From NCBI GenBank assembly GCA_964016885.1, contig OZ024746.1, forward strand, positions 44,144,001 through 44,208,000: DNA of 64,000 bases. The letters run 5' to 3'. Under the pieces are notes generated by a model. The model was given only the letters and a program-made list of their open reading frames with translations, had not been told where the DNA came from and did not search any database. Below are positions 21,603 through 61,628 of this stretch, in pieces (the stretch's first letter is position 1; every line of letters starts with the position of its first letter). Source of the stretch: Eledone cirrhosa (Eukaryota). A program made the translations under genes and the position numbers.

Positions 21603-22939
21603 TATATATATATGTCTATGCATGAATAGATATATTTGTGTGTGTGTGTCCGTTAGATGTATTATTGCATTTCATGAATTACGAAGAATTTGCAAGTTAC
21701 TTCACCCGGGGAGGATTAATAATAGCTTCACTAACTTCAGAAGACGATTTGTGTGTGGTGTCGTATGTATGTGTGTGTGTGTGTATGTCTGCATAAGACA
21801 TAATTTGTACGCTATTACATTTATATATATCTAATCAATGGGCGTACAACAGTGCTTAATCTAAACTATAATAAAGTAAGAAGCGTGGGACTGCGTACGG
21901 TTTATAATTTGTTATCCTATTAGTAAAATAAGTTGGATTACTTTGAATAAATAATGAATGAATATTACATAATTTGTCTACTAAATTTCGTGGCTGTTCA
22001 TTAAATATATTTTATTACTTATTTAAAGATTCACTTGTTTAAAATTTTCAAATGTCAACACTTCCAGTTAGCGATCGCTTAAATAAATATTCATATATTT
22101 CTGTCACTAATTTTCTCCTGATGCAGTTTATATTTAATATCGTCTTTTTTTAATGTATCATGGATTATGTTACTGATTAGAGAAGACAGTCTAACACAGT
22201 CTTCGTTCAATTTCTGTGTATATTGTCAATTACGATTTTATTTTATGTATCTTTAGTGAATTGGTCACAGGGTTATTTACTTTGGTAAACGCCACTGCAG
22301 GCCAACCACAAATTTAATTCGATACAGATATAATAAGGTTAACAAACTCGCTCGTGAGTGAACTGTCCGAGAGCCGGTCGCCAAATAAGCCAAGATGTCT
22401 CTTTTCTCCCTCCTTTATACTCCCTAGACCGGAAGTTCAATGAATCCTCTAGAATTCAACGGGAAGTAACTCCAATTAGTTTTTTCTCCCCGGGCAAGGT
22501 GGCGCTAGTCGCTACAAGGCTCCCCTCCAGACGATAGTTGATAATAACCATAAGGTCATTATAGCGAGGAGCCGTAGAATAAGGAGCAAGCAAAACAAAA
22601 GGTACATTAATTACAATGGTTTGTAACAGAAGCAAAGTACGAAAATAAGCATGCAGAAAGATGTAACTGGAGTTGCTTCCCGTTGAATTCTAGAGGATTC
22701 CTTGAACTTCCGGTCTAGGGATTATAAAGAAGGGAGAAAAGAGACATATTGGCTTATTTGGCGACCGGCTCTTGGACAGTTCACTCACGAGCGAGTTTGT
22801 TAACCTTATTATATTTGTATCGAATTAAATTAGTGGTTGGCCTGCAGTGGCGTTTACCAAAATAAATAACCCTGTGACCAATTCACTAAAGTGGTGACCC
22901 CGACGTGATATTATGCCAGAAGATTCGAGCCGTAATAAG

Positions 22940-23407
22940 CTACACCGTGGCAGCTATGCCAGGATGTGACAAGGAATGAAGTGCATCAAAAACGGTACGC
23001 TGATGATAATCCGGAACAAACGGTCTGGGTGATCCAGTAGAAATATCGCAAAGAATTTTTCCTTCAGCGGATGGAAGAGGTAAATAATCAAACTTACAGC
23101 AGGAAAGTTGGGTAAAAGAAATGTTCATCGAATCCAAAGTAGGTTGGTCAGTTGCAATGGCAACTGAATTGATATGTTCAGGAGACGCAAGAGAACACAC
23201 AGAAAGTCGAGATAGTGCGTCCGCAGGTATGTTGGCATTTCCAGCTATGTGACGAATGTCACTGGTATACTGTGAGATGAGATCCAGATGCCTATACGCT
23301 ATCGGAGAGTACTTGTCGGATTTGGTGTGAAGAGCGAATGTGAGAGGTTTATGGTCTGTGAATACCATGAATTCCCGACCTTCAAGAAGATGGTGGATGT
23401 GTCTCAC
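22940..23407 (-). pseudogene. pol: Gypsy RNase H end / integrase zinc-binding start
   Basis: FTDHKPL, HIAGNANIPADALSR and LHSLSHPG. Truncated before the integrase core. Confidence 0.88.
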
Positions 23408-23421
23408 AGCAAGATAAACTG

Positions 23422-24240
23422 CTAAAAGCTCTCTGTCAAAAGTACTGTAACGTTGCGTGAGAAAAACGCCAGTGGTTGAATCTGGTGATCGATTACATGT
23501 TGCAAAACTGTGCCAACAGCACGATCAGATGCATCAACAGATAAGGAACGTCTCGCATTTGCAACAGGATGGGCAAGGAAGGAAACTTTAGCTAGCTCAG
23601 ACTTGACGGATTCAAAAGACTGCAATGCATTGGCAGAAAGTGAAATTTTAGCATCTTTCTTTTTTGCAGCCCTTAAAAACTGTGTCAAGGGGAACAACTT
23701 GTCCGCACAGTTAGGAATAAAGCGACGATAAAAGTTAATTAATCCCAAGAAATGGCGTAATTGTCTCAAGGATGTTGGTGGTGCTAATTGCTGAATCGCC
23801 TTTACTTTAGATGGCAAAGGACGAATGCCTTCTGAATCTATAAGGTGTCCAAGAAATTCCAGTGAATCTGTACCAAACACACATTTAGCTGGGTTGATTC
23901 TGACTTGGTACGATTGGAGACGTTGAAATAACTGAGATAGATGTTGATGATGGTGATCATCCGAATCACTGGCTATCAGGAGATCATCAACGTAAGCAAA
24001 CACGAAATCCAATCCATGCGTGACTTCATCGATAAAACGCTGGAACGTACTAGAACCATTCCGCAAACCAAAAGGCATGGACAGGAATTCAAATGAACCA
24101 AAGGGGGTGGTCACAGCTGTTTTTGGTATATCCTCTGGATTCATGGGTATCTGGTGGTATGCACGTATTAGATCTATTTTGGAAAATATCTTACATCCAT
24201 GCAGAATGGATGAAAAATCCTGTAAATTTTGTAGGGTAAC
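23422..24240 (-). pseudogene. pol: Gypsy reverse transcriptase / RNase H fragment
   Basis: FSKIDLIRAYHQI, MPFGLRNG, AYVDDLLI, FLGH and VDASDRAVG motifs. The N-terminus is missing. Confidence 0.92.
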
Positions 24241-25321
24241 GGTCCGGCGTGGTGATGGCATTAAGTCGTCGATAATCTCCCACAGGCCTAAAATCCGCTT
24301 CACAATTAATTTTAGTGTGTTGCTAGATCCAGGGTTATTTACTCGAGTAAATGTCACCGAAATCTAACTACTAAATTTTATCAAGAAAAATTCTTTGCAA
24401 TATTTCTACTGGATCACCCAGACCGTTTTTTACGGATTATCATCAGCGTACCGTTTTTGATGCACTTAATTCCTTGTCACATCCTGGCATAGCTGCCACG
24501 GTGAAGCTTATTACAGTTTGATTCTTCTGGCCTAATATCACGTTGGGGTCACCACTTTAGTGAATTGGTCACAGGGTTATTTACTTTGGTAAACGCCACT
24601 GCAGGCCAACCACTAATTTAATTCGATACAGATATAATAAGGTTAACTAACTCGCTCGTGAGTGAACTGTCCGAGAGCCGGTCGCCAAATAAGCCAAGAT
24701 GTCTCTTTTCTCCCTCCTTTATAATCCCTAGACCGGAAGTTCAAGGAATCCTCTAGAATTCAACGGGAACTCCAATTAGTTTTTTCTCCCCGGGCAAGGT
24801 GGCGCTTGTCGCTACATATCATATCTACTTGCGTATAATATCAATATACTCACTACAAAAGCTAGCAGAAAACCACCCGAAGCGTGGTTTTTCTGCTAGT
24901 TATATTAAATGAGTTTAAATAAATAAACAGTTAATAAATAAATAAAACGTTATACTTGTTTTACCCTCCCATTTCCAATTAAACCGAATGCTATCATAAC
25001 TGTATGTGTGTGTTTGTGTAAATGTATGTGTGTGAATTATGTCCGTGAGTGTGTATTTTTATAAGTTTGTGTTTGCGCGATTATAGTTATATACTCATAC
25101 ATATAGATGTATGTATGTGCACACTCATACGCGTCAGTGTGTAGCAAATCGTAATCTCTCTATCTCTCTCATCACACACTCTCTCTATATGTATGGTAGT
25201 TGAAGTGGTGGCGACGATATACAGGAAGTTCAACTTTGAAAAGAAGTCAATTTTAGATTATTTATTTTTACAAAATTTAGCACTTAAATTATGTAATATT
25301 CATTCATTATTTATTCAAAGT

Positions 25322-26344: not shown

Positions 26345-27643
26345 CAGGGTGGGGCATAATTCCTGTTACAAAGTTTTAAATCAATTTAAAAATACATTAT
26401 GTTGCTAATATAACTAATATATTTGTATCAAATCCATGCACTATAACCATATTAACTATTTTTCAGAACATTACTCCATTAACAATTTGCAATGGCCATA
26501 GAATTGAAAAGAAAGTTCATAATAGAGAAGCATGAAAAAGGCCTGACTCCACCCGAGATATTTAAACTGGGGGAAATTCTTAAGATCAATAGAATGTTGA
26601 TCAAAAGGACAATCGATCGATTTAAGGAAACTTCCTCGATCAAAGACCTCGACCCAGACGCCCTCGCACCCCAAGAACACCAAAACTCGTTAAAGTGTGA
26701 GGGAAAGAATAAGGCGTAATCCAAGAAGGTCCATGAGAAAAATGGCAGAAGAAGCAGAAACATCGCCGAGAACTATGCGGAGGATATGTTGAGATGATCT
26801 GGGGATGTCACCCTATAAGTTCCAAAAGAGGCAGCTTCTTTCTGCAGCCACAATTGAAAAGAGGCTCTCCAGAAGTAAACTGTTATTGAACTGTATCAAG
26901 GATGGCACGCTGCAAAACATCATCTTTACAGATGAGAAGTTATTCACTGTGCAGCAGTCTCACAATCATCAAAATGATCGAGTACTTGCAAAAAGTCTCA
27001 AATCAATTCCTTCAAGTGTAGGAAAAGTGTTCAGAACACAGAAACCAGCATCAATGATGATTTGGGCAGCCATTTCTGAAAGAGGTAAGTCTCCTCTGAT
27101 TTTTGTGCCTCAAGGAGTTAAAATTAACAAAGAACTTTGCATAAAGGATATTTTGGAAGGAGCACTGATGCCATGGTGCATATCTGTTTATGGCGATGAC
27201 ATTTGGACTCTCCAACAAGATGGAGCGACGAGCCACACTGCTTGCATAACACAACAGTGGTGTAGAGACCATTGTCCTGCATGGATCAGTAAAGAAGAGT
27301 GGCCTCCCACATCACCAGATCTCAACTCTCTCGATTTTTATTTATGGTCAATTCTTGAGAGTGAAGCCTGCTCTACTCCTAGCCAAAATATTGAAACTCT
27401 AAAATCAAAACTGAATAAAGTATGGGAGAAAATACCCATGGAAACTGTTCATGCAATCATCGAAGACTTTCCTAGAAGACTTCCAGCGGTGGTGAGAGTT
27501 AGAGGAAAGCATTTCGAATAAATTTTTGTGCAGTTGTTTAATAGTATATTACTTACAATTTGTTGAAGTCAGATCTTGAAATAAATGTTTTTTTCAAGAA
27601 CTATTTGCATTTTATTTTGTAACAGTTTTTATGCCCCACCCTG
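26345..27643 (+). mobile_element. Tc1/mariner DNA transposon, DD37D (maT) family, full length but inactivated
   Basis: ~28-bp TIRs CAGGGTGGGGCATAA...TGTTACAAA, TA target duplication, ~1.3 kb. Confidence 0.93.
26492..27521 (+). pseudogene. DD37D transposase
   Basis: FTDEKLF, QQDGATSH and WPPTSPDLNSLD, with 37 residues between the 2nd and 3rd Asp. Frameshift near 26645 and an in-frame TGA near 26790. Confidence 0.9.
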
Positions 27644-32660: not shown

Positions 32661-32778
32661 ATATATATATATAAGTATTGAAGTTTCCGTTGAAAATTGA
32701 AAAAGTCATAGGAGTGAAGAGTGCTCTATGTAAGTTACAGAGCTAAATTTAATGTATAATAAAAAATACAATATAATT

Positions 32779-32839
32779 ACCTCATTACCAGAGGTATCCC
32801 GAATACAAGAAACGTCCTCATTCGTTCGGCAGACAAGGC
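32779..32839 (-). ncRNA. degenerate hammerhead ribozyme
   Basis: GCCUUGU-CUGCCGA-stem II-GAUA-CCUCUGG-UA-AUGAGGU. The core is mutated at two positions. Confidence 0.55.
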
Positions 32840-33439
32840 AATTTAAAACAGTGAAATATTTGAAAAATCTCAAGAAAGGCAAATGTTTAACGGGCAAAAA
32901 ATATATATAAATAAAATTAATACAAGAGATATATAAAAAATAAAATAAGGAAATATAGTAAGGGTATGTGTATAAATGTGTGTATATACAAATGTACATA
33001 TGTATGTATGTACAAATGCATGTGTATAGTGAAAAAATGTGTGCGTAAGTACATACATGAGGGCAAGCATATCAGTGTATGTGTGACCACAAATACGTAT
33101 ATAATATATGTTGAAATAAGAAATTGTAAGATAATAGAGTTAGCGTACATACAGACTCAGGGACTAAGGATTGAAATATATACACATAAAAGTATGAAAG
33201 CACGCGTATAAACACACACGCGCAACCACATAGATGCATGTGATATATACAGAGAAGGGAGTATATCAGTCAAAGCAGTGTCAGGCTGAAGGTCGATGCA
33301 TATATAAAAAATTATAAAATATGAAAATGAAAAAATGAAAAAATATATGAGAATAAAAAAATTAAATCAAAGAGACAGAGGGAGGGGTTATCAATTATAA
33401 AGTAACACTAGAAAAAATAGAAAACATACAGAGGTTCGT

Positions 33440-33502
<63 letters not shown>

Positions 33503-35561
33503 CAAAAGCACATACATGCGTACATACATACAAAAGCGCGCATACATACACACGAAGCACACACATATATATATATATACATGTACATCTAATCACACGC
33601 ACGCACGCGACCATATATATATACATATATATACACACACATATATATATATATACATATACATCACATATATATATAAGTATGTAAAAAAATATAGATT
33701 TAAAAACACACATACACGCGCACATAGGAATGCATTCGTATACATATACAAACACGTATACACACTTACACGCATACGTACAATATAAAAACCAGCCGTA
33801 TGAATAAATGAGTACAAATTATACGCAAGTAAACATACATAAAAGCGGCTGAGGGACAACAGAATATATCTGGAGTTGAAAACGCAAGTGACAGTGATAT
33901 CAGCTAGTGAAAGAAAAGGGGGAAGTAAAATATGTAAAATTGTGAAGATATAATGTAAATCAAAGAGCAGGAGGGGAGGGGGTCACTGGTACATGTGAAG
34001 TAAAAATAAAGTTAAAAATAAAAGTAAATCAGAAAGAGAAGTCTGTAAATAAGGTAAGTTAAGGAAAGTGAAGAACAAGAGTTTATGGAGGATAAGTATC
34101 TGAAAGTGAGTTAAGTTTATATGAGCTGGAAAGCAAGTGTGATTTCATGTGTGGGCAACTGGTGAAAATTTCTGTTTTTGCATTTAGGCAGGTTTTTTGG
34201 TGATTTAAGGTTCAGTAAAATCCAATATTTTTCACTTATGCAGATTGTGCATCTTCTTGTTCCTCTTGCATATTATTTAGATGGTTCAAAATTGACCAAT
34301 CTAATTTATATTGGATACCTTGGTCTTTCAAATCCCATATTCTGCTAGCCAGAGGTATACACACATAGACCAAGGTATCCAATATAAATTAGATTGGTCA
34401 ATTTTGAACCAATCTAAAGAATATGCAACAATACTTCTGCTCTTTGATTTACATTATATCTTCACAATTTTACATATTTTACTTCCCCCTTTTCTTTCAC
34501 TAGCTGATATCACTGTCACTTGCGTTTTCAACTCCAGATATATTCTGTTGTCCCTCAGCCGCTTTTATGTATGTTTACTTGCGTATAATTTGTACTCATT
34601 TATTCATACGGCTGGTTTTTATATTGTATGTATGCGTGTAAGTGTGCATATGTGTGTATACGTGTTTGTATATGTATACGAATGCATTCGTATGTGCGGC
34701 TGTATGTGTATATGTGTCTGTGTATGTGTGTTTTTATATCTATATTTTTTTACAAACTTATATATATATATATGTGTGTGTGTATATGTATATAAATATA
34801 TGTGTATATATATATGTATATATATATATATGGTCGCGTGCGTGCGTGTGATTAGATGTACATGTATGTGCTTCGTGTGTATGTATGCGCGCTTTTGTAT
34901 GTATGTACGCATGTATGTGCTTTTGTCTGTACGTATATATATATATATATGTGTGTCTACGAACCTCTGTATGTTTTCTATTTTTTCTAGTGTTACTTTC
35001 TCTTTGATTTAATTTTTTTATTCTCATATACTTTTTCATTTTTTCATTTTTTCATTTTCATGTTTTATATTTTTTTATATATGCATCGACCTTCAGCCTG
35101 ACACTGCTTTGACTGATACACTCCCTTCCCTGTATATATCACATGCATGTATATGGTTACGCGTGTGTGTGCGTGTGTTTATACGCGTGCTTTAATACTT
35201 GAGTGTGTATATATTTCAATCCTTAGTCCCTGAGTCTGTATGTACGCTAACTCTATTATCTTACAATTTCTTTTTTCAACATATATCATATACGTATTTG
35301 TGGTCACACATACACTGATATGCTTGCCCTCATGTATGTACTTACGCACACATTTTTTCACTATACACATGCATTTGTACATACACACATATGTACATTT
35401 GTAGGTGTATATACACACATTTATACACATACCCTTACTATATTTCCTTATTTTATTTTTTATATATCTCTTGCATTACTTTTATTTATATATATTTTTT
35501 TTGCCCGTTAAACCTTTGCCTTTCTTGAGGAGATTTTTCAAATATTTCACTGTTTTATATT

Positions 35562-35711: not shown

Positions 35712-35922
35712 CAGTACAGAGAAGTACGAAAGTACGAAATACCTCGGCCTCGAGATGGTGTCTACATTTTGTGGTTATATTACCAGGAGTTTTTTCCGTG
35801 CGAAGAAAATCAATACTTTATCGCGAAATAAATACTTTTGGAATCTCCTGGAGATTCCAACCAGAATGGTTGCATTTTTTAAGGGTATGTCAATATTTAT
35901 TTATAAAACTAACCTATATTAT

Positions 35923-35986
35923 ATTTTATCTGATGAAAGCGCACCATAGTTTGCTCTGGTGGCTCTTGAAATATGTATAATGAAAT
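35923..35986 (+). ncRNA. minimal type I hammerhead ribozyme
   Basis: AUUUUAU-CUGAUGA-AAGCGCACCA..UGGUGGCUCUU-GAAA-UAUGUA-UA-AUGAAAU. Stems I and II pair and stem III is vestigial. Confidence 0.8.
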
Positions 35987-36018
35987 AAATATGGTTTTAT
36001 AAATATAGTTTCCATTTG

Positions 36019-36063
<45 letters not shown>

Positions 36064-36147
36064 GGGACTATCCGGGAGCTTCCAACAGAAATGGTCGCAT
36101 TCTTTAAGGGTATGTCAATACTTATTTATAAAACTGATCTATATTAT

Positions 36148-36210
36148 ATTTTATCTAATGAAAGCGCACCATAATTTAACTTGGTGTCCTTGAAATATGT
36201 ATAATGAAAT
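36148..36210 (+). ncRNA. minimal hammerhead, G5A-mutated copy
   Basis: Same fold as 35923, but the core reads CUAAUGA. Confidence 0.65.
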
Positions 36211-36266
36211 AAATATGGTTTTATAAATATAGTTTCCATTTGTTAATATATCTTATATATATATAT

Positions 36267-37015
36267 ACTAGCAGAATGGCCCGGCGTTGCTCGGGATTTG
36301 CTATAGGGTTCTTATATATTTGATATATATTTATCCTTATCGAACCCCGTGAAATAAATACGTTTGTTTATATTTTGTTATTTTGTATGCAAAAATATCT
36401 GTCCATAAATATATAATTATATATATATATATATATTAAAATAACAGACTAAAGTTTAAGCAAAGAATCTCTGCTTTCACCCTTAACGGGATATTCTACC
36501 TAAAAGCAGTATGAAGTACATACACTAAGACTAATTGATGTAATCTTTGGCCTTGTTTGTTTATATTTTGTTTTTGTGTATGCAAAAATATCTGTACACG
36601 AATATCTATATTAAAATAACATATTAATGTTTAAGCAAAGAATCGCTGCTTTCAACCTTAACGGGATCTTCTTAAACTAAAAAAATCAATCTGGAAAACA
36701 GGAAGACGATACTTTAGTTCGTGAAGACGTTCCCTGGCATAAGAATATATATACACACACACACTGATCGCGTCATAATGACGTAATGCAGACGGTCAGG
36801 CATACAGACAGATATTATGAAGGCACGACGTCATATCTATGTATCTATCTAAAAAGAGAAAGACTAAGAGAGAGAGAAAGAGATCGCTAAATCGCCTCAT
36901 GTGGTCCCTAAGGCATTGAAAATTTGAAATTTTTGGTCAGAACACTCAATAAGACTATAGGTAATACATGTGTAAAGTTTGAAAACAATCGGTTAAGTGG
37001 TTCTCGAGTTAACGT
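36267..37015 (-). mobile_element. non-autonomous Helitron
   Basis: Minus-strand 3' end CCCGAGCAACGCCGGG...CTAG followed by T. 36770-37010 is an inverted homolog of 40905-41145. Confidence 0.7.
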
Positions 37016-49599: not shown

Positions 49600-50926
49600 A
49601 GGTGCCTACTGACTGTAGTAGGTTTCACTTTGCACTTAGGTAAGGCAGGTCTTCTCTATTACTGAGTAGCACCAAAGATCTCGGTCCAGTGACATTGTCT
49701 TGGAGAGGTGTAAGTGTGTGAGGTCGGAATTTATCAAGTCGTCCCAGGTTTTTCTGGGTCTGCCTACTCCGTGGCTACCGTCTATTTTTATTGCCCTGCA
49801 CTTTTTTATACAGCTGTCGTCTTTCATGCGCATCACGTCACCATACCAATGAAGTCTTCTCTCGAGTAAACAACATCTGATCCCTCTTATTTCTAATTTC
49901 TCCCTTAGTTCGTTTATGCTTTGCCATTCACGTATATTACTATTACACATCCAGCGGAGCATGCAAGCTTCGTTTCTCTCCAGTCTGTGTATATCCTCTG
50001 CACACAATGCCCAGGTCTCACTGTCATGTAACATTGCTGTTCGTATGCAGGCATCATACAGCCTGCCTTTCATTTTAGGCGAGAACCCTTTAGCGGCCAA
50101 TAGTGGTATAAGCTCTCTGAACGTTTTCCATCCCGTTCTGAATCTAGCTACTGTACTTTCAGAGCACCCCCCCCCCCCCACTGCTGATTTTATCACCCAG
50201 GTTAACGGAAGCTGTCCACTATTTCTATAGAACCATCTGTGCAATGGAATGAGTTAGTATTCTGTGGGCACTTGCTGCTAATTATTACACCAGAGCACCG
50301 GCCACATGTAAAATCTATATTCTTAGTTAGCTTACCTGTGATCCCACTACATCTTTTCTGTACCCATACTTTGCATTTGGGACATAAAATGGAGTTTCTA
50401 CCTACTCCTTTCCTACACACTGAGCATGGCCATTTCCCAGATGGGACCGGTGCCCTATTTTCCTTCCTACAAACTAGAACTTTAGTCTTAGACAAGTTAA
50501 CTTTAAGGCCTTTTGATTCTAGGCCATGCTTCCGTGTTTGGAATTTCTTCTCTAGTTCAGCCATTGATTCAGCTATGAGCGTTAGATCATCTGCATATTG
50601 GAGTTCCCATGGGCAGCCGGTCTTGAACTCCTCTGTTATAGCCTGAAGGGTAATAATAAATAGTAGGGGGCTAAGGACGGAGCCCTGATGAACACCAACT
50701 CTTATGCTAAACTCTTCACTATATTCGTTGTTAATTCTAACCTTGCTGACTGTTTCTTTATACAAGGCTTGTATAGCTCTCACAAGCCATTCATCAACAC
50801 CTAGTTTTCTAAGGGCCTACCAGATAATCGAGCGGGGTACTCTGTCAAAAGCTTTCTCCAAGTCAACAAAAGATAAGTATAGGGGTTTACTTTTAGCTAG
50901 GTACTTCTCCTGTAGTTGTCGTACAA

Positions 50927-50927
<1 letters not shown>
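49600..50927 (-). mobile_element. RTE LINE RT domain and C-terminus (pseudogene)
   Basis: FVDLEKAFDRVP, GVHQGSVLSPLLF, YADDL, a Cys-rich insert and GRPRKTW. The 5' side is broken at the (TA)n that flanks the PLE palindrome. Confidence 0.92.
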
Positions 50928-50980
<53 letters not shown>

Positions 50981-51073
50981 GAAGTAATTCCGTCGGAAAA
51001 GTTCAGGAAAAAGGAGTGCTATATGTAGGTAACAGAGCTTAATAGTTATGTAATAAACAACATAAAACAATTA

Positions 51074-51134
51074 TTTCATTTACCAGCGGTTTCTTAAAAG
51101 CAAAAAAATGTTGCTTTCAATCATCAGAATGAAA
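51074..51134 (-). ncRNA. type I hammerhead ribozyme, intact core
   Basis: UUUCAUU-CUGAUGA-UUGAAAGCAA..UUGCUUUUAA-GAAA-CCGCUGG-UA-AAUGAAA. All three stems pair, with a GUA cleavage triplet. Confidence 0.9.
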
Positions 51135-51953
51135 AAATCCTGGTGTATTTATAGGTATTGGATTTTAAAAACAAAAATATAATCTATATGAAAATGAGGC
51201 TGGAAAAGGAAGAAGGAAAGGAAAAATAAACACACATGCAAACACACACACACACAATTATATACATACACATATATATATATACATACACACACACACG
51301 CATATACACACACACACATATATGTGTATATATATACATACACATACATATACACATACATACACACATAATTATCAACATATCCATACATACAAATACA
51401 TACAAATACACAAACGTGCATACACACACACACACACATATACATGCATATATACATATATATACATAAACATATATATACATACATACACACACATACA
51501 TATATATACACATATATATATATATACATACACATACATATACACACATACATACATACACACAATCATACATATATACACACGTACATACATACACATA
51601 CATACACACATATATACCCGTATACATATGCATGCACAAATATAGAAATATGTACACACACCTACATACTCACACACACAAATAAATATAAGAAAAAATA
51701 TAATAATAAAAATACCGTCACATAAGAATAAAAATGAATATAAAGTTTATTAAAGTGTTGACAGCGATACAGGCAACACATAAATAAACAAACACACGTG
51801 GTAAGCAATACACACAATTGTACGTACACATACATACGTAAAAATAAATACATACAGACACTCTCACACATACACATACATATACAAATACATATACATA
51901 CGCATACACATATACATACACACATATATATACACACATATATATACACACAC

Positions 51954-52000
<47 letters not shown>

Positions 52001-52244
52001 CATACACATCCATATATACATATACATACATATCACAAACACATACATACAAATACAAACACACACATATGTATGTGTGTAAAACTCATTCTAAGATACA
52101 TTCATATGAACCTTGTTTAACTCTAAAATATATATATATATATATATATATACATACACATATATACATATACATATATATACCTACACACACATATACA
52201 TACACATACGTATGCAAACATACATACACACAGACACACACATA

Positions 52245-52286
<42 letters not shown>

Positions 52287-52337
52287 AAGAAACATAAATA
52301 TTATATATATAAAAAAACCTAAATATTGTATATATAA

Positions 52338-52423
52338 AAATAAAAATAAAAATAAAAATAAAAATAAAAATAAAAATAAAAATAAAAATAAAAATAAAAA
52401 TAAAAATAAAAATAAAAATAAAA
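52338..52423. repeat. (AAAAAT)n microsatellite
   Basis: About 14 perfect units. Much shorter in the opposite arm (~59320-59347). Confidence 0.9.
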
Positions 52424-52966
52424 AGTCGGGAATACGACAAATAATAAATAAAAAAATAATTAGAGAAGCGTATAAATGTTTATAGCTGATATGGAGCACT
52501 CAACAAGTTCCTGGAGCAAATGATCAATGAATTTAAGCATTAAATCACTGTATGTAATTATGCATATACATACACACATACATATACATATATATACATA
52601 CACACACACACACACACACAAACACAACCACAGAAATACACACATACATATACGTATATATATATATATATATACACACACATAGGAAAAAGTCTGACCC
52701 CACGGCAGAGCTCAAGCCGTTTCTGAGGCTATTATATATATACACACGAAACCATTATATAAAAATACATATACACGCACAAACATACACACACCCACAC
52801 ACTCACACATTAAATCTATATATACACACATACATACACACATATATATACATATATATATATATACACACACATATATATCTATATACACACATATACA
52901 TATATATATATATACACACACATATATATATATATATACACATTATATATATATATATATACACAC

Positions 52967-53020
<54 letters not shown>

Positions 53021-53121
53021 AAGTTTTATTTAAATTGTTGGGTTAACAACGAGTAAATATTTATAACTGATATAAAAGCACTCAACAAGTATTTGCTAGA
53101 GCAGGATATAATGATAAAATT

Positions 53122-53925
53122 ATGTACATAGATAATAATAGACAAACTAACCAAAATAACAACAATTTTAATTACGGCAACAACTTTAACAACAATAATA
53201 GAAAACATTACAATAATTCCAAAAGCCAAAAAAGAAATAGAACTAGGAATATAATATGGTTTGCCCCCCCTTTCTCACTAAACATTAAAACCCACATCGC
53301 TAAACTATTTTTTAATGCTCTTGATAATCGCTTCCCTAGAACACATAGGTATCACTCAATTTTCAATAGACATACTATAAAATTAACCTACTCATCCACC
53401 AAAAATTTAGCACAAAATATTAATAGAATAAATAATAGGAATTTAAAACCTAGCCAAAATACCGATAATAGCATAAATAATATCCAAGTTAACAAATGTA
53501 ACTGTAGAGATAGATCTAAATGTCCGTTAAATAACAATTGCTTAGTTAAACATATAATATACAACTGTAATGTTAAAACGGACTTAAATTCTTTTAACTT
53601 TGTTGGTTCCACCTCGGCAGAATTTAAACTTCGCTATAATAACCACAAGAATTCTTTCACAGATCCAAGCAAAAAATCCTCAACATCACTATCAGGCCTA
53701 CTCTGGCAACTTAGGCATGATAACGTTGGATATTCAACGGCTTGGAATATAGTCTCAAGAGGGATTCCTTTTAATTCATCCTCTGAGACATGTGACCTCT
53801 GCGCGGAGGAGATATTCTTTATACTAAAATCTAAAAATTCCCTTAATTTACGGACAAATTTATTCAGTTGCTGCAGACATAGATTGAACTCAACTTTTAA
53901 ATATAAATATAAATTTAAAATGTAG
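53122..53925 (+). CDS. PLE (Naiad-type) linker plus GIY-YIG endonuclease, 267 aa uninterrupted
   Basis: RNIIWFAPPFSLNIKT, CNCRDRSKCPL, IIY...FVG, FKLRYNNH, CDLCAEE and LN.R...SCCRH. Asn-rich N-terminus and no RT. Confidence 0.75.
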   Translation: MYIDNNRQTNQNNNNFNYGNNFNNNNRKHYNNSKSQKRNRTRNIIWFAPPFSLNIKTHIAKLFFNALDNRFPRTHRYHSIFNRHTIKLTYSSTKNLAQNINRINNRNLKPSQNTDNSINNIQVNKCNCRDRSKCPLNNNCLVKHIIYNCNVKTDLNSFNFVGSTSAEFKLRYNNHKNSFTDPSKKSSTSLSGLLWQLRHDNVGYSTAWNIVSRGIPFNSSSETCDLCAEEIFFILKSKNSLNLRTNLFSCCRHRLNSTFKYKYKFKM

Positions 53926-55290
53926 TATATTTAATTTGATTTATAATTATTTATGAAACTCGCCGATAAATCTTTCGATTCCTTTTTATTTTAAACATTC
54001 TTCATGAATAATTAAACTACCCTAAAAGCTGATGCTCCAATTATATCGAATAAATTTTACACTAGATAAACTTCTATATTAAATATAAGACCATCTGTAG
54101 ATCAAATGGGTATCCTAAACTTTTGGAATGTTTTCTGCTAGACAGGATTTGGTAAATAATTTTTGGTTTTGTTTGCTTTTGATTCTGATGCTTATAACGA
54201 ACTTGGCAATATATTGTCAATTAACTTCGAAGGGTTGATCTCTGTGGTTGATTTGCGGGGCATACTATGTTTTATTTTAATTTTAATATTTTTAATATTT
54301 TTAATATTTTTATTTTTTATATTTTTTTGATTTTTTGTTTTTTATTTACTTTTTGTTTTTTGTTTTTTGTTTCTGATATTTTTATTGATATATTGATATC
54401 TGTTCTCTATTTATGCTTGAACGATAATCATGTAGAGTAAAGACATGAATAGTATTGTTAAAATTAATGTAGACTCTATATATATTTATGTGTATGTACA
54501 CATATATGTATACTTAAATTTTTATAGCACAATGAGAATGTTTTCGTGTGAAATAGGAATTTGCAGAGCTGATCACGTAAATTCACATGGATGTGTATAG
54601 TATAAAATCTGGGATAACCTTCTATTTTATCTCAACTCTAATATAAACCTAGGAATTTTAGACTAGACATATGATCATTATTCTTCACACATTATTGATA
54701 CGTGTCTCATTCATGAATACTGATATTTACATTATAATGCCTGGTTTATACGAATTGATATTTTTTACATTGATGAAACATAGTGTTTTAAATCTGCCTC
54801 GTTTTTGTCTGGATATTTTTCTTTTCTCTCTATGTAACGGCTGTTTTCTCTCTTAACCACATATATCTCTCTCTACATTAATACTAGAGCTAAATAAATA
54901 AATAAATAAATAAATATATCATTGATACATCATTCAACTGGTGCCCAACTACCTAGTTTCTTTCTCTCTATCTCTATCTATATCTATCTCTCTATATTTT
55001 CTCTCTCTCTTTCTCTCCTCTCTTCTCTCTCTCTCTCTCTATCCCTCTGTGTTTTTTCCTCTCTCTATATATCTCTCTCTGTTTCTTTACATGGATTTCT
55101 TCTCTCTATCTATCTCTCTATATCTATCTCTCTCTATTTAGTTGCATGCATTTCTTCTTTTTCTTCGTTTTTCTTTCTTTCTTTTTATAACTGTCCCTAA
55201 TATTTTTTCACTACCAAATCAACTTTTCAAATAGAAGTCGAAGTTGAAAGGTATGTCGAATCTATCTATTTATAAGACTGTTTATATTGT

Positions 55291-55354
55291 ATTTTGTCTG
55301 AAGAAGGCATAACATATTTTTAATATGATATCCCTGAAATATATATAATGAAAT
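55291..55354 (+). ncRNA. minimal type I hammerhead ribozyme
   Basis: AUUUUGU-CUGAAGA-stem II (AGG...CCU)-GAAA-UAUAUA-UA-AUGAAAU, with a self-complementary stem III loop. Confidence 0.75.
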
Positions 55355-55395
55355 AAATATCGTTTTATAAATATAGTTTCCATTTATTTAATATC

Positions 55396-55440
<45 letters not shown>

Positions 55441-55685
55441 CATACACATATACACACATATACGCAACACACACACACACATACACAAATAAATATCTAA
55501 AAATAAAATATTGGGTATGTGAAGGGTAAGGCAGAAAGTAGGGAGGGGGGGGGATAAGGAAAACAAATGACATAGGAAAAGGTTTAAATATAAGTGGAGA
55601 TAAGGGAGAAAGAGAATACGAGAGTACAGAACGTGGATTCAGCAGGTAAAAAAACCGTAGTGGAAGTAAATAGCAGGAAAGGAGT

Positions 55686-56101
55686 TCAAGGTGGTTGAGT
55701 TATCGTAGGTATGTCAATCCAGTTACAGATCAGATGTGATTTCAGGTGGGGATAACATCTGAAGATCTCGGTCTTTGAGTTCAGGCAATCAAAAGTGGCT
55801 TTCAAGTTTTGTAAAATCCTATATTTTTCCGTGGTACACAAAGAACAATTCTTTGTGCCTCTTTGGTACTCCCTCGACTGGTCTAAAATAGACCAATCGA
55901 TAGAGTACGGGATGTTTTTATCCTTGAATTCCCACACCTTACTTGCGAGGGCCGTTGCTGTTCTTTTATCGGAGTGCTTAAAAGAAGCGACATATGCATA
56001 AAACCAGGTTTTAAACCTGTCCTGGGTCATGCCAACATATCGCTCACTCCTGGCTGGCTGGTTGTTGATTAAAGGTGTCACTTTGGCCTCATAAACAACG
56101 G
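55686..56101 (-). pseudogene. PLE GIY-YIG endonuclease C-terminal half, inverted copy
   Basis: VVYEAK...YVGMTQDRFKT...CSLCTTEKY...LNSKTEIF. Confidence 0.85.
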
Positions 56102-56783
56102 AAAAGGAAAATTATTTGGTTTACACCCCCCTTCTCTCTAACTGTCAAAACTAATGTAGGAAGGAAATTCCTTGACCTCTTAGATAAACATTTTCCTCCT
56201 AATCATAGATATTATAAGATATTTAATAGAAATCTAGTTAAGTTCAGTTACTCTTGTTGCCCATCAATGAAATCTAAGATCACTAATTCTAATCGTACGA
56301 GAACAAATCCAGAATGAAGTTGCAGGAAGCCGGATGAATGCCTATTACAGGGCAAATGTAACACCAAATCCGTTGTTTATGAGGCCAAAATGACACCTTT
56401 AATCAACAACCAACCAGCCAGGAGTGAGCGATATGTTTGCATGACCCAGGACAGGTTTAAAACCAGGTTTTATGCACATGTCGCTTCTTTAAGCACTCCG
56501 ATAAAAGAACAGCAACGGCCCTCGCAAGTAAGGTGTGGGAATTCAAGGATAAAAACATCCCGTACTCTATCGATTGGTCTATTTTAGACCATTTGAGGGA
56601 GTACCAAAGGGGCACAAAGAATTGTTCTTTTGTACCACGGAAAAATATAGGATTTTACAAAACTTGAAAGCCACTTCTGATTGCCTGAACTCAAAGACCG
56701 AGATCTTCAGATGTTGTCCCCACCTGAAATCACATCTGATCTGTAACTGGATTGACATTCCTACGATAACTCAACAACTCTGA
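56094..56783 (+). pseudogene. PLE linker plus GIY-YIG with in-frame TGA at a conserved Cys
   Basis: RKRKIIWFTPPF...NPE*SCRKPDECLLQGKC...VVYEAK...YVCM. Frameshifts occur downstream of ~56490. Confidence 0.85.
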
Positions 56784-57069
56784 ACTCCTTTCCTGCTATT
56801 TACTTCCACTACGGTTTTTTTACCTGCTGAATCCACGTTCTGTACTCTCGTATTCTCTTTCTCCCTTATCTCCCCTTATATTTAAACCTTTTCCTATGTC
56901 ATTTATTTTCCTTATTCCCCCCCCCCCCCCTACTTTCTGCCTTACTCTTCACATACCCAATTTTTTATTTTTAGATATTTATTTTTGTGTGTGCATGTGT
57001 GTTGTATATATGTGTGTATATTTGTGCGTGTATATGTATTTTTATATAATGGTTTTGTGTGTATATATA

Positions 57070-57166
57070 TAATTGTTTCTACTTTAGGCACAAGGCCAGC
57101 AATTACCCAGTGCATTACTGGTACTTTATTTTATCGACCCCGTAAGGATGAAAGGCAAAGTGAACC
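57070..57166 (-). mobile_element. 5'-truncated SINE in the right arm only
   Basis: SINE 3' half that is absent from the matching left-arm position (~52725-52735). Confidence 0.85.
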
Positions 57167-57282
57167 TAAACGGCTTGAGCTCTGCCGTGGGGTCAGGCTT
57201 TTTCCTATGTGTGTGTATATATATACGTATATGTATGTGTGTGTGTATTTCTGTGGTTGTGTTTGTGTGTGTATGTATATAT

Positions 57283-57334
<52 letters not shown>

Positions 57335-57336
<2 letters not shown>

Positions 57337-57931
57337 AAAGTTATATTTAAAATTGTTGGGTTACAACTAGTAAATATTTATAACTGATATAAAAGCACTC
57401 GACAAATATTTGGAGTATATTTTCAATATTAAATAAGGAGGAGATATTCTTTATACTAAAATCTAAAAATTCCCTTAACCTACGGACAAATTTATTCAGT
57501 TGTTGCAAACATAGATTAAACTCAACGTTTAAATATAAATTTAAATTTAAAATGTAGTATATTTAGTTTGATTTATATTTATATGGGAAACTAGCCGATA
57601 AATGTTTGATTCCTAAATCTTTGATTCCTTCTTTTTACTCTCTTTTTTTATTGTTTATTTTTATTTTATTTTTATCTAAACATTCCTCATGAAAAATTAA
57701 GCTACCCTAAAAGCTGATGCTCCAATTTTTTTAATAAACCTTACACTAGATAAACTTCTATATTAAATATAAGAACATATATAGACCTAATTGGACATCA
57801 TAATCTTTTTGAAATGATCTTTGCTAGATGTGATTTGATAGATAATTTTTGGCTTTGTCTTGTAAAGAACTTGGCAATATATTGTCAATTAATTTTGAAG
57901 GGTTGATCTTTGTGGTGTATTTTTATTTTTA

Positions 57932-57962
<31 letters not shown>

Positions 57963-59145
57963 TTTATTTTTATTATTCTAGTATTCTATAATATTTTTTA
58001 TTTTTATTGTATTTTTAATATCTTTAATATGTAAATTTTTAATACGTAATATTTTTTAATACGTAGTATGTTTAATATATAATATTTTTATTATGTAATA
58101 TTCTTTCGTAATATTTTTTAATTCTTTAATTTTTTTAGTTTTCTATTCTATTTTTTACTTATTATTCTTATTGTTATCTTTTTATTTTTAGTTTTATTTT
58201 TAGTTTTGTTTATGATATATACTTTTATTAGTATATTGAAATCTGCTCTCTACTTCTGCTTGATAGATAATCTTGTAGAGTAACGACAGGAATAATAATA
58301 CACATATTTGTATGCTCAAATTTTTATACCACATTGAGAATGTTTTCCGTGAACTTAGAGTTTGCAGAGTGAATCAGTTGGATTCGCATGGATGTTTGTA
58401 GCTGTCACATAAACATATGAATTTTTTTTAAAACTAAACATAAGATAATTAATTTTCACACATTATAGATACTTGTCTCATTCAGGAATACTGATATTTA
58501 CAATATAGTGTAAGTTTTATAAATACTAATACATTAAAACATAGGGTTTTTACGCCTCGAATATATCTGGCTATTTTTAAATTTTTTTCTCTCGCTATTT
58601 TTTTTCCTCTCTCTATATTTTTTTTTTCTCTCTCTATATATCTCCCTTACATTAATACTTGAGCTAAATAAATAAATAAATAAATAAACGTATCATTGAT
58701 ACATTTACTCAAAATGACCTCCCACTACCTAATTTTCTATATATATATATGTATCTATCTCTATTTCCTCTCTCTCTATATATATATATATATCTCTTTC
58801 TGTGTCTTTACATGAAGTTCTTCGTTTTATCTATCTTTCCATCTCTCTATTTTGTTCCATGCATTTCCTCTTTCTCTTCATTTTCTTCCTTTTCTTCGTT
58901 TTCTGTCTTTCTTTCTGTTTTCTCTCTTTCTTTCTCTCTGTGTAAAATTTTTTCACAGCCAGCGTAAACCTCTTCAAATGAAGTCGGTGTTATAACGGTA
59001 TGTCGAATCTATTTATCTATAAAACTGTTTATATTGTATTTTGTCTGATGAAGGCATAGCATATTGTTAATATCATATCCCCGAAATATATATAATGAAA
59101 TAAATATGGTTTTATAAATATAGTTTTCCATTTATTTAATATTGC
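57335..59145 (+). mobile_element. second copy of the RT-less PLE family, ~700 bp of ORF deleted
   Basis: Same 5' start as 53018. Resumes at GGAGGAGATATTCTTT (equivalent to ~53805) and has the same 3' end. Confidence 0.82.
59038..59101 (+). ncRNA. minimal type I hammerhead ribozyme
   Basis: AUUUUGU-CUGAUGA-stem II-GAAA-UAUAUA-UA-AUGAAAU. Confidence 0.72.
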
Positions 59146-59652
59146 ATATATATATATATGTATGTATGTGTGTATGTATATGTATAATTACATAGTGATT
59201 TAATGCTTATTTTCATTGATCATTTGCTCCAGGAACTTGTTGAGTGCTCTATATCAGCTATAAACATTTATACCCTCGTCTAATTATTTTTTTATTTATT
59301 ATTTGTCGTATTCCCAACTTTTTATTTTTATTATTATTTTTATTTTTATATATACAATATTTATTTTTTTTATATATATAATATTTATGTTTCTTCTTAT
59401 ATATATATATATAATTATATGTGTGTGTGTGTATGTATGTTTGCATATGTATGTGTATGTATATGTGTGTGTAGGTATATATATGTATATATATGTATAT
59501 GTATATATGTGTATGTATATATATATATTTTAGAGTTAAACAAGGTTCATATGAATATATTTAAGAATGAGTTTTACATACATATGTGTGTGTTTGTATT
59601 TGTATGTATGTGTTTGTGATATGTATGTATATGTATGTGTATGTATGTATGG

Positions 59653-59720
<68 letters not shown>

Positions 59721-60507
59721 ATGTATGTGTGTGTATATATTTATATGTGTGTGTGTGTGTATGTATATGTGTATGCGTATGTATGTGTATATGTATTTGT
59801 ATATGTATGTGTATGTGTGAGAGTGTGTGTACGTGCAATTGTGTGTATTGCTTATCACGTGTGTTTGTTCATTTATGTGTTGCCTGTATCGCTGTCAAAA
59901 CTATAATAATCTTTATATTCATTTTTATTCTTATGTGACGGTATTTTTATTATTATATTTTTTCTTATATTTATTTGTGTGTGTGAGTATGTAGGTATGT
60001 GTACATATTTCTATATTTGTGCATGCGTATGTATGCGTGTATATATGTGTGTATGTATGTGTATGTATGTACGTGTATATATGTATGATTGTGTGTATGT
60101 ATGTATGTGTATGTGTATGTACATGTGTATATATTTGTATGTGTGTGTATATATGTTTATGTATATATATGTATATATGCATGTATATGTGTGTGTGTGT
60201 GTATGCACGTTTGTGTATTTGTATGTATGTGTATGTATGGATATGTTGATAATTATGTGTGTATGTATGAATGTGTATATGTATATGTATGTATATATAT
60301 ACACATATATATGTGTGTGTGTGTATATATGTGTGTGTATGTATGTGTGTATGTATATATATATATGTGTATGTATATAATTGTGTGTGTGTGTGTGTGT
60401 TTGCATGTGTGTTTCTTTTTCCTTTCCTTCTTCCTTTTCCAGCCTCACTTTCATATAGATTATATTTTTGTTTTTAAAATCCAATACCAATAAATACACC
60501 CGGATTT

Positions 60508-60568
60508 TTTCATTCTGATGATTGAAAGTGAAATTTGTTTGCTTTTAAGAAACCACTGGTAAATGAAA
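60508..60568 (+). ncRNA. type I hammerhead ribozyme, intact core
   Basis: UUUCAUU-CUGAUGA-UUGAAAG..CUUUUAA-GAAA-CCACUGG-UA-AAUGAAA. Predicted cleavage after 60561. Confidence 0.9.
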
Positions 60569-60589
60569 TAATTGCCTTATGTTGTTTAT

Positions 60590-60649
<60 letters not shown>

Positions 60650-60653
<4 letters not shown>

Positions 60654-61622
60654 AAGGAAAAGCGAAGTAGTTTAATAATAATGTCCTTAATGCTGTGATA
60701 TATATTTCAGTGACGACACTGGCCACACTGTTCTGTATGCGTGTGTCGTGTCATCATCAGACAGCTTGTTACATAATAAGGTTATGTTTCCGAGGCAATC
60801 CAAATTGATGATGACACGACACTCGCACACAGAACAGTGTGGCCAGTGTCGTCACTGAAATATATATCACAGCATTATTATTAAAGGACTTGAACATCTG
60901 AAACTACTTCGCTTTTCCTTATTCGATATTTACTCCGTCACTCCTATGTGGAAAAAGTACGTTGAGTGCTTGAATTGAATTGCATCAATATTTACCCTAA
61001 TAATTTAGCTCCAATAGTTGAGCGCTTTACGATGTAACCGATATGGTGGAGAAGAGAGGAACCAACCATAAGCTACCCCTGAAATTCCCTCTACCATGGG
61101 GATGAAACCCCTTACACTGGACGGACATAATAGTAACTTTCGGCAGGATAAATACGCGGAAACAAATAATAGGATAAACCCCTATTTTCTTGCACCAAAT
61201 CGCACTTGAACAGAGGCCCCCTCAATTCAATCTATACATGGACAGATCGACAATCATATGGATCATATATGTACTCTGTGTTTTTGCATTTATTCACTGT
61301 TGGTTCTGTTCTTTTCTTTTGTGTACTTTATGTCTGTTTTTCTTTGATTTTGTTCCATATGAGGGAAATTAGGACTGTGTACCAGATTCACTAATGCCTG
61401 GAGCCCTGTAGTTATAATGTACGACACTGTCGTTCAATATGTGGATAGAGTGGCCAGTGACAGTGTGGCCAGTGTCGTCACTGAAATATATATCACAGCA
61501 TTATTATTAAAGGACTTGAACATCCGAAACTACTTCGCTTTTCCTTATTCGATATTTACTCCGTCACTCCTATGTGGAACAAGTACGTTGAGTGCTTGAA
61601 TTGAATTGCCTCAATGTTTAGC

Positions 61623-61628
<6 letters not shown>
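60650..61628 (+). mobile_element. small non-coding Penelope-derived element with direct and inverted pLTRs
   Basis: Direct repeats at ~60835-61000 and ~61461-61628. 60650-60759 is an inverted copy of 60806-60924. (TA)n on both flanks. Confidence 0.75.
60692..60765 (-). ncRNA. minimal type I hammerhead ribozyme
   Basis: GCUGU-CUGAUGA-(ACGACAC..GUGUCGU stem II)-GAAA-UAUAUA-UC-ACAGC, with an AUC triplet. Confidence 0.78.

What the first reader, a model, noticed from the sequence alone, without database searches (positions are those of the whole stretch)
50978..60594. 9.6-kb nested palindrome: a fold-back Penelope element capped by two intact ribozymes
Seen: removing two insertions (53018-55396 and 57335-59145) and a SINE leaves one element (GIY-YIG end, ~2 kb of microsatellite-rich 3' region, HHR) present twice back-to-back, diverging from a junction near 56095-56101. 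The arms have diverged, including in microsatellite lengths, so this is not a simple read artefact. Known: PLEs have inverted pLTRs and HHRs, usually far shorter. Inference: either strand's transcript would be a multi-kb hairpin trimmed by a ribozyme at its 3' end, making it both a replication intermediate and a dsRNA/ADAR substrate.
Basis: partly seen in the sequence, partly recalled or inferred. Interest (0 to 1): 0.75.

Follow-up and report, generated by a model that had tools for sequence, protein, structure and literature searches.

The report
Two-armed Penelope retrotransposon insertion
This 9.6-kb mirror-image stretch is real but ordinary: it is one decayed copy of an abundant Penelope-type jumping gene that often sits as two back-to-back arms, likely because both ends of a cut in the host DNA copied the same kind of RNA, and two later insertions inflated its size.

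Summary
Observation confirmed. Without two nested insertions and a 96-bp repeat, two arms of about 2.7 and 2.6 kb diverge from a 3-nt microhomology (56100-56102), differ at 46 of 1213 non-microsatellite columns, are sister sequences (98% bootstrap) and end in (TA)n. The element is a 5'-truncated Hydra-type Penelope-like element (PLE) with an inverted 5'-truncated copy at its 5' end, a form already described, with ribozymes on both strands, for Penelope-13_HM. The family has over 2,300 ribozyme sites here; 22 of 39 sampled copies have an inverted neighbour, and two span more than this one. One arm carries a 64-nt tail and the other lacks it in 24 of 27 pairs, which points to two-ended priming at two fixed start sites. 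The hairpin as replication intermediate is not supported: the junction is unique, the arms run past the ribozyme cut sites, and the ribozyme would be buried in duplex. Intact cores are the family norm (38 of 41). dsRNA/ADAR activity is untested (no RNA run). The scan noted this two-armed pattern before on other DNA of this genome.

The parts
50927..50977 (.). (TA)n target tract, left
   Evidence: sequence
50978..51041 (-). 64-nt PLE tail, on the left arm only; ends at the family's 'long' end site
   Evidence: the same 64 nt continue into the ORF in full-length copies
51075..51133 (-). type I hammerhead motif of the left arm; predicted cut after 51081; 3-bp stem III, near-palindromic
50978..53017 (-). 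left arm, outer part (microsatellite-rich 3' region, ribozyme, tail)
53018..55396 (+). nested insertion 1: 5'-truncated copy of a second Hydra-type PLE family (linker + endonuclease frame 53071-53925, 3' region, ribozyme core at 55298), with its own tail inverted at its 5' end (53018-53095)
55397..56102 (-). left arm, inner part: endonuclease C-terminal part (open frame 55689-56102) and start of 3' region
56100..56102 (.). inversion junction, 3-nt microhomology shared by both arms; unique in the genome
56103..56368 (+). unpaired 266-nt spacer: RT-endonuclease linker, part of the right arm only
56100..57071 (+). right arm, inner part: linker, endonuclease (broken by a stop and frameshifts), start of 3' region
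57072..57167 (.). 96-bp piece of an abundant short repeat, in the right arm only; about 10 nt of the arm are missing at the site
57168..57334 (+). right arm, middle part
57335..59145 (+). nested insertion 2: same second PLE family (68-74% to insertion 1 in the body), ribozyme core at 59045, own tail inverted at its 5' end (57335-57437)
59146..60594 (+). right arm, outer part; ends at the family's 'short' end site (a few nt short of it)
60509..60567 (+). type I hammerhead motif of the right arm; predicted cut after 60561
60595..60649 (.). (TA)n target tract, right
   Evidence: sequence

Best explanation
It is a dead, 5'-truncated insertion of a Hydra-type Penelope-like retrotransposon in a (TA)n tract, whose two back-to-back arms come from one source and were likely written in one event, each cut end of the target likely priming reverse transcription at one of two fixed start sites on the element's RNA. 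Shown: family identity by motifs, sister relation of the arms, a unique junction with 3-nt microhomology, ends at two fixed sites 39 and 103 nt past the ribozyme cut, one site per arm in most pairs, and later nested insertions. Inferred: (1) the element's protein cut both strands of (TA)n; (2) one 3' end primed at the near ('short') site and the other at the far ('long') site, on uncut or religated RNA, since both cDNAs cross the ribozyme cut; (3) both cDNAs stopped near the linker/endonuclease region, 2.6-2.7 kb in, and were joined through the microhomology; (4) repair filled the second strands; (5) about 2% substitution per arm, microsatellite drift, two PLE insertions and a short repeat followed. 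The palindrome is a product of insertion, not a template, and the two ribozyme motifs are passengers of the duplicated 3' end.
For: Arms: endonuclease part 16 of 547 different, below all 88 arm-to-other comparisons (minimum 0.031, median 0.050), and five states shared by both arms but at 0-3% in other copies; sisters at 98% bootstrap among 44 arms. Family: 2,301 exact matches to a 20-nt ribozyme word, control 0; among the first 100 listed, 17 back-to-back pairs within 12 kb against 1 face-to-face pair (counted by eye); inverted neighbour in 22 of 39 copies chosen by endonuclease likeness. Ends: long/short in 24 of 27 classified pairs (p = 2.5e-5 against 50:50); in a second sample of 29 long-tailed copies, 16 had a detectable opposite end: 15 short, 1 unclear, 0 long. 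In the nested family the inverted arm is often the tail alone and starts at or near the short site (positions 1-16 of the tail query in 10 of 17 loci). Junctions differ between loci, mostly with 0-6 nt overlap or short inserts. Literature: inverted 5'-truncated copy and one-sided tail in PLEs (PMC8557442); Penelope-13_HM has this form with ribozymes on both strands; PAc protein cuts and extends both strands and starts at two adjacent internal sites bounding the tail, on uncut RNA (PMC11167929).
Against: No reads bridge this locus. Not all large pairs fit: arms are sisters in 4 of 6 large palindromes, unresolved in L084 and not sisters in L048; 3 of 27 pairs are long/long or short/short. By raw distance over 1031 columns three partial copies lie closer to one arm than the arms to each other (0.032-0.035 against 0.041), and in the ribozyme segment the arms are no closer than typical copies (11 of 188). 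Gene conversion between arms could also give shared states. PAc is a Poseidon element; two-strand priming is not shown for Hydra elements, and that study saw no difference in start site between strands. One RNA versus two RNAs cannot be told for kb-long arms. Pfam and PDB gave no relevant hit for the RT or endonuclease, so the protein identity rests on motifs.
Confidence: 0.78

Rival explanations
1. Self-priming fold-back: one cDNA snapped back at the 3-nt microhomology and copied itself, and the hairpin was joined to the second target end.
For: Explains sister arms, a loop that belongs to one arm, and a short microhomology with a single priming event.
Against: The loop lies on the right arm, so the right arm would be the template, yet the 64-nt tail is on the left arm only and cannot be copied from it. 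The longer arm lacks the tail in 5 of 13 kb-scale long/short pairs. Fold-back predicts equal ends or a tail on the longer arm only.
Confidence: 0.07
2. One reading: the palindrome is transcribed as a multi-kb hairpin, trimmed by a ribozyme at its 3' end, and serves as replication intermediate and ADAR substrate.
For: Both cores are complete; outer 1.5 kb and inner 0.7 kb of the arms could pair if transcribed through.
Against: Junction unique; start sites lie beyond the cuts; ribozyme out-competed by duplex; intact cores in 38 of 41 copies not chosen for their ribozyme; no excess of sense-strand A>G among rare changes in copies (47 A>G against 104 T>C); single PLE ribozymes with short stem III cut poorly as monomers (PMC4209133 passages); no RNA ends at the PAc cut site in RNA-seq (PMC11167929); no host exon recognised among the window's 49 long frames (by eye).
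Confidence: 0.05
3. Two independent insertions of the same family, the second landing at the 5' end of the first, with later gene conversion between the arms.
For: The family is very abundant and nests in (TA)n; L048 (long/long, arms not sisters) may be such a case.
Against: No (TA)n at the junction; shared rare states along the arm; back-to-back pairs 17 to 1 over face-to-face, where under one pair is expected by chance at this density; tail rule.
Confidence: 0.06
4. Assembly artefact or later DNA-level inverted duplication.
For: No independent reads span it.
Against: 3.9% arm divergence, different insertions in each arm, different ends, flanks not duplicated.
Confidence: 0.04

Closest known systems
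Hydra-clade PLEs (Craig et al. 2021, PMC8557442), above all Penelope-13_HM; also Hydra-1_Obim
   Same: C-terminal endonuclease, RWK, DKT, CxCX5C linker, CxxC and CxH, (TA)n target, type I hammerhead near the 3' end. [quoted passage not shown]
   Different: The unit here is 4.4-4.8 kb from ribozyme to ribozyme against 1.1-3.0 kb for the listed families, owing to a 3' region of over 2 kb rich in microsatellites; hence arms of 2.7 kb or more and spans up to 11 kb. The 64-nt tail is longer than the 30-40 bp described.
Poseidon element PAc of Anolis (Frangieh et al. 2024, PMC11167929)
   Same: Two adjacent start sites downstream of the ribozyme that bound the tail; AT-rich target; both strands cut and extended; ribozyme cut not needed.
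   Different: Other clade; in vitro data; no inverted products analysed and no pairing of one site with each arm reported in the parts read.
L1 twin priming (recalled, no call)
   Same: Two primers from the two target strands make an inverted 5' segment joined at a microhomology.
   Different: In L1 the second primer anneals inside the RNA, giving inversion without duplication; here both arms hold the whole 3' end.
Non-LTR retrozymes (bioRxiv 10.64898/2026.07.22.740005, part 1 of 5 read)
   Same: Type I hammerhead, link to PLE pLTRs.
   Different: Those are short non-coding tandem units; this is a truncated coding element.

Membership tests
Hydra-clade PLE | single ORF, RT followed by C-terminal GIY-YIG endonuclease | tested here: met
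   frames in 10 longer copies cover about 2.1 kb from near the ribozyme to the endonuclease end, each copy broken somewhere; RT and endonuclease named from recalled motifs, no Pfam or PDB hit
Hydra-clade PLE | RWK motif and DKG changed to DKT | tested here: met
   both in longer family copies; this part is missing from the window copy
Hydra-clade PLE | CxCX5C linker; CxxC before E and CxH after N; no CCHH | tested here: met
   family copies and nested insertion 1; in the window's right arm the first Cys position is a stop; absence of CCHH judged by eye
Hydra-clade PLE | canonical hammerhead motif near the 3' end | tested here: met
   core and three stems; no Rfam hit at gathering score; cleavage not tested
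Hydra-clade PLE | insertion into (TA)n | tested here: met
   both ends here and nearly all ends printed
Hydra-clade PLE | generally short, under 3 kb | tested here: not met
   unit 4.4-4.8 kb in L037, L039, L049, L056; the paper gives this as a tendency, the ORF length fits
Hydra-clade PLE | placement in the Hydra clade on an RT tree | not tested
   reference proteins were not in hand
PLE inverted-copy insertion | 5'-truncated inverted copy directly at the 5' end | tested here: met
PLE inverted-copy insertion | tail at one end only | tested here: met
Hairpin RNA replication intermediate | daughter copies that share the junction | tested here: not met
   1 match genome-wide at up to 1 mismatch
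ADAR / small-RNA substrate | read-through transcript with editing or small RNAs | not testable with these tools
   no RNA run was listed

The most novel reading that the evidence does not exclude
Every two-armed insertion of this family records a fixed division of labour: a PLE dimer primes one target strand at the near site and the other at the far site of one RNA that is uncut or closed to a circle, the far-site enzyme often stutters a (CA)n repeat first in a telomerase-like way, and the long 3' region turns these events into dozens of 6-11 kb palindromes and hundreds of small ones, a genome-wide source of dsRNA.
Probability: 0.3. Interest if true: 0.55.

Novelty: new member of a known kind. 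Interest (0 to 1): 0.25.

Why it matters
The locus itself is one of many. Its use is as evidence: how PLEs make tandem and inverted forms and a one-sided tail is named as open in PMC8557442 (section 15), and the counts here (one start site per arm, sister arms, tail on either the longer or the shorter arm) favour two-ended priming over fold-back and can be tested in the existing PAc assay. Whether such palindromes feed RNA editing or small RNAs remains open and needs RNA data.

Tried and rejected
Rfam: no hit. Pfam on window frames and on one longer copy, and PDB by sequence: nothing relevant; the Atlas gave no answer for the RT. Public runs: no RNA holder listed, which says nothing on expression. 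Laying seven runs on the junction and on the left end showed only other family copies; the 'opposite strand' joints at 56099/56102-56368 are what ordinary copies give on this stretch; no listed piece bridged the junction with 31 letters on both sides, which proves nothing either way. Editing footprint in DNA copies: no sense A>G excess; T>C was higher than A>G (p = 0.008), unexplained. Selection on the ribozymes: not needed, 38 of 41 cores intact. Target-site duplication cannot be read in (TA)n. Tail-only inverted arms, common in the nested family, were rare in the main family (about 1 of 29). Paper searches listed no paper that counts tail states of paired arms; subscription journals, including the older PLE papers cited in PMC8557442, are not in the library, so this is no proof of absence. 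Earlier-findings look-ups by words, sequence and near place returned nothing.
Full report
Observation. The palindrome is in the sequence as described. Leaving out 53018-55396, 57072-57167 and 57335-59145, the left arm (minus strand, 56102 down to 50978, about 2.7 kb) aligns with the right arm (plus strand, 56369 to 60594) through the endonuclease end, about 1.8 kb of microsatellite-rich 3' sequence and the hammerhead motif; 46 of 1213 non-microsatellite columns differ. The right arm starts earlier, at 56100, so 266 nt of linker form an unpaired spacer, and the arms overlap by 3 nt. Both outer ends lie in (TA)n. The left arm runs 64 nt beyond the family's short end site. Divergence, different insertions and different ends exclude a read fold-back. 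Seven public runs gave no piece that bridges this locus; they show only that the family is abundant in them.

What it is. The window lies at G000:C6:44,144,001-44,208,000 in a 3.0-Gb genome; the linker-endonuclease stretch has 2,549 first-look candidates, of which 40 were scored; the best places other than the window are 91-96% alike. A 20-nt ribozyme word occurs 2,301 times, its reversed control never. Ten longer copies, read frame by frame, show RWK, DKT, an RT core, the CxCX5C linker, CxxC before E and CxH after N, the marks given for the Hydra clade (PMC8557442 section 11). Pfam and PDB gave no relevant hit, so the domain names rest on motifs, partly recalled. The host looks like an octopus to me from recalled repeats; this was not tested. 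Both nested insertions are a second Hydra-type family; each has a ribozyme motif at its 3' end and its own tail inverted at its 5' end; that this head is the tail is shown by loci where it follows the ribozyme directly.

How common. Of the first 100 ribozyme words listed (first 174 Mb of C1), 34 form 17 back-to-back pairs within 12 kb (14 under 200 bp apart; 3 at 6.6, 7.8 and 9.2 kb) and 2 form one face-to-face pair (counted by eye). Scaled to 2,301 words this suggests some 70 kb-scale pairs, a rough figure from 3 events. Of 39 copies chosen by likeness to the endonuclease part, 22 have an inverted piece of the same family next to their 5' end. L043 and L048 span 11.2 and 10.5 kb between ribozymes, against 9.5 kb here. 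The form is in print: an inverted 5'-truncated copy next to the 5' end and a tail often at one end only (PMC8557442 passages), and Penelope-13_HM with such a copy and ribozymes on both strands (its File S1/S2).

One origin. In the endonuclease part the arms differ at 16 of 547 sites, below all 88 comparisons with other copies; they share five states found in 0-3% of the others. On a tree of 44 arms (loci L043, L049, L059, L068, L069, L081, L087, L088 and arms under 500 columns left out) they are sisters at 98%; so are the arms of L062, L085 and L086, while L084 is unresolved and L048 is not. Against this, three partial copies are closer to one arm by raw distance, and the ribozyme segment alone does not single out the pair.

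Mechanism. Copies end at two fixed sites, 39 and 103 nt past the predicted cut. Of 28 back-to-back pairs (L059 dropped as the same locus as L086; L072 and L077 had one end missed by the anchor), 24 are long/short, 2 long/long, 1 short/short, 1 unclear (24 of 27, p = 2.5e-5). In a second sample of 29 long-tailed copies, 16 had a detectable opposite end: 15 short, 1 unclear, none long. PAc protein cuts and extends both target strands and starts at two adjacent internal sites that bound the tail, and ribozyme cutting is not needed (PMC11167929, parts 1-2 of 4 and passages). The simplest reading is that the two target ends primed at the two sites and that the two cDNAs were joined at a microhomology (inferred). 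A single cDNA folding back cannot give this locus, because the spacer is on the right arm and the tail on the left; the longer arm lacks the tail in 5 of 13 kb-scale long/short pairs. In the nested family the far-site arm often stops at about the near site (10 of 17 loci), as expected if both primers sit on one RNA; in the main family this is rare, so one RNA or two stays open for long arms.

The junction occurs once and junctions differ among loci, so palindromic RNAs are not being copied. An RNA trimmed at the ribozyme would lack both start sites unless religated. In a read-through RNA the ribozyme meets its complement: -83.8 kcal/mol over 67 nt against -5.7 and -7.8 for the ribozyme folds, which are not even the minimum-energy fold for the right arm. 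Stem III has 3 bp and is near-palindromic, the type reported to need a dimer (PMC4209133 passages); the partner here is on the other strand. A plus-strand RNA would carry two further motifs in its loops. Intact cores are usual, 38 of 41 (detection needed the downstream anchor, and 3 truncated cases were left out). Rare changes in copies show no sense A>G excess. Whether the locus is transcribed, edited or diced could not be tested.

Comparison and novelty. It works like, and by all tested motifs is, a Hydra-type PLE insertion with an inverted copy; tree placement was not done and the unit is longer than described families. The paper searches listed no count of tail states in paired arms, but older subscription papers are not held, and supplementary figures of PMC11167929 were not seen and may bear on this. 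From bioRxiv 10.64898/2026.07.22.740005 I read part 1 of 5; other papers were seen only as listings. The scan's own notes report two-armed PLE-type insertions with two fixed start points elsewhere in this genome; they are unchecked notes, and my counts were made before and after on separate loci.

Verdict. Real, well explained, a new member of a known kind; interest 0.25, carried by the family-wide tail rule rather than by this locus.

Noticed in passing
long-tail ends of family copies, L031-L088: A C follows within 4 nt of the aligned end in 28 of 36 long ends against 4 of 43 short ends; about 4 of the 28 are alignment shifts, most others are (CA)1-7 between tail and (TA)n. Could be repeat stuttering by the RT at the far start site. 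The window's own long end has none.
   Followed up: partly
window 59206-59270 and 52473-52528: The main element's 3' region holds a relic that resembles the tail of the nested family (37 nt at 86-89%; score 52 against a maximum of 41 in 500 shuffles). The long 3' region may have grown by capture of other PLE ends in its own (TA)n tracts.
   Followed up: partly
window 57168-57215; L034 551-949; L051 278-500 (oriented): Another piece of the 3' region also occurs on its own as small back-to-back pairs, perhaps the end of a further small element.
   Followed up: no
G000:C1, pairs in L070-L083: Most back-to-back pairs are tiny (ribozyme words 35-160 nt apart), and many arms stop at a short AT-rich palindromic spot about 30 nt upstream of the ribozyme.
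   Followed up: partly
L081 (G000:C1:157065417-157068562): Three minus-strand ribozyme ends about 1 kb apart next to one plus-strand end: a tandem plus inverted insertion or a local duplication.
   Followed up: no
L048 (G000:C4:370046191-370060190): 10.5-kb back-to-back pair with RT sequence in both arms, both ends long, arms not sisters: a candidate for two templates.
   Followed up: partly
window 22251-24769: Gypsy-like RT/RNase H/integrase frames (22940-24363, minus) within inverted repeats 22677-23061/24385-24769 at 96%; named from recalled motifs.
   Followed up: no
window 32719-35403: Another nested palindrome (32987-33224/35166-35403 at 96%; 33668-33973/34434-34739) with a tail-like end related to the main family at 32719-32798.
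   Followed up: no
window 35878-36267: Two tandem copies of a ribozyme-bearing end related to the nested family.
   Followed up: no
window 26793-27521 and 49636-50816: A Tc1/mariner-like transposase frame and RTE-like LINE frames (recalled motifs); the LINE piece stops at the (TA)n that holds the palindrome's left end.
   Followed up: no
window 60642-60932: A 290-bp self-inverted element right next to the right (TA)n, with partial copies at 61460-61628.
   Followed up: no
family copies: Rare sense-strand T>C changes (6.3 per 1000) exceed A>G (4.0 per 1000), p = 0.008; unexplained, possibly alignment noise in T runs or RT error bias.
   Followed up: no
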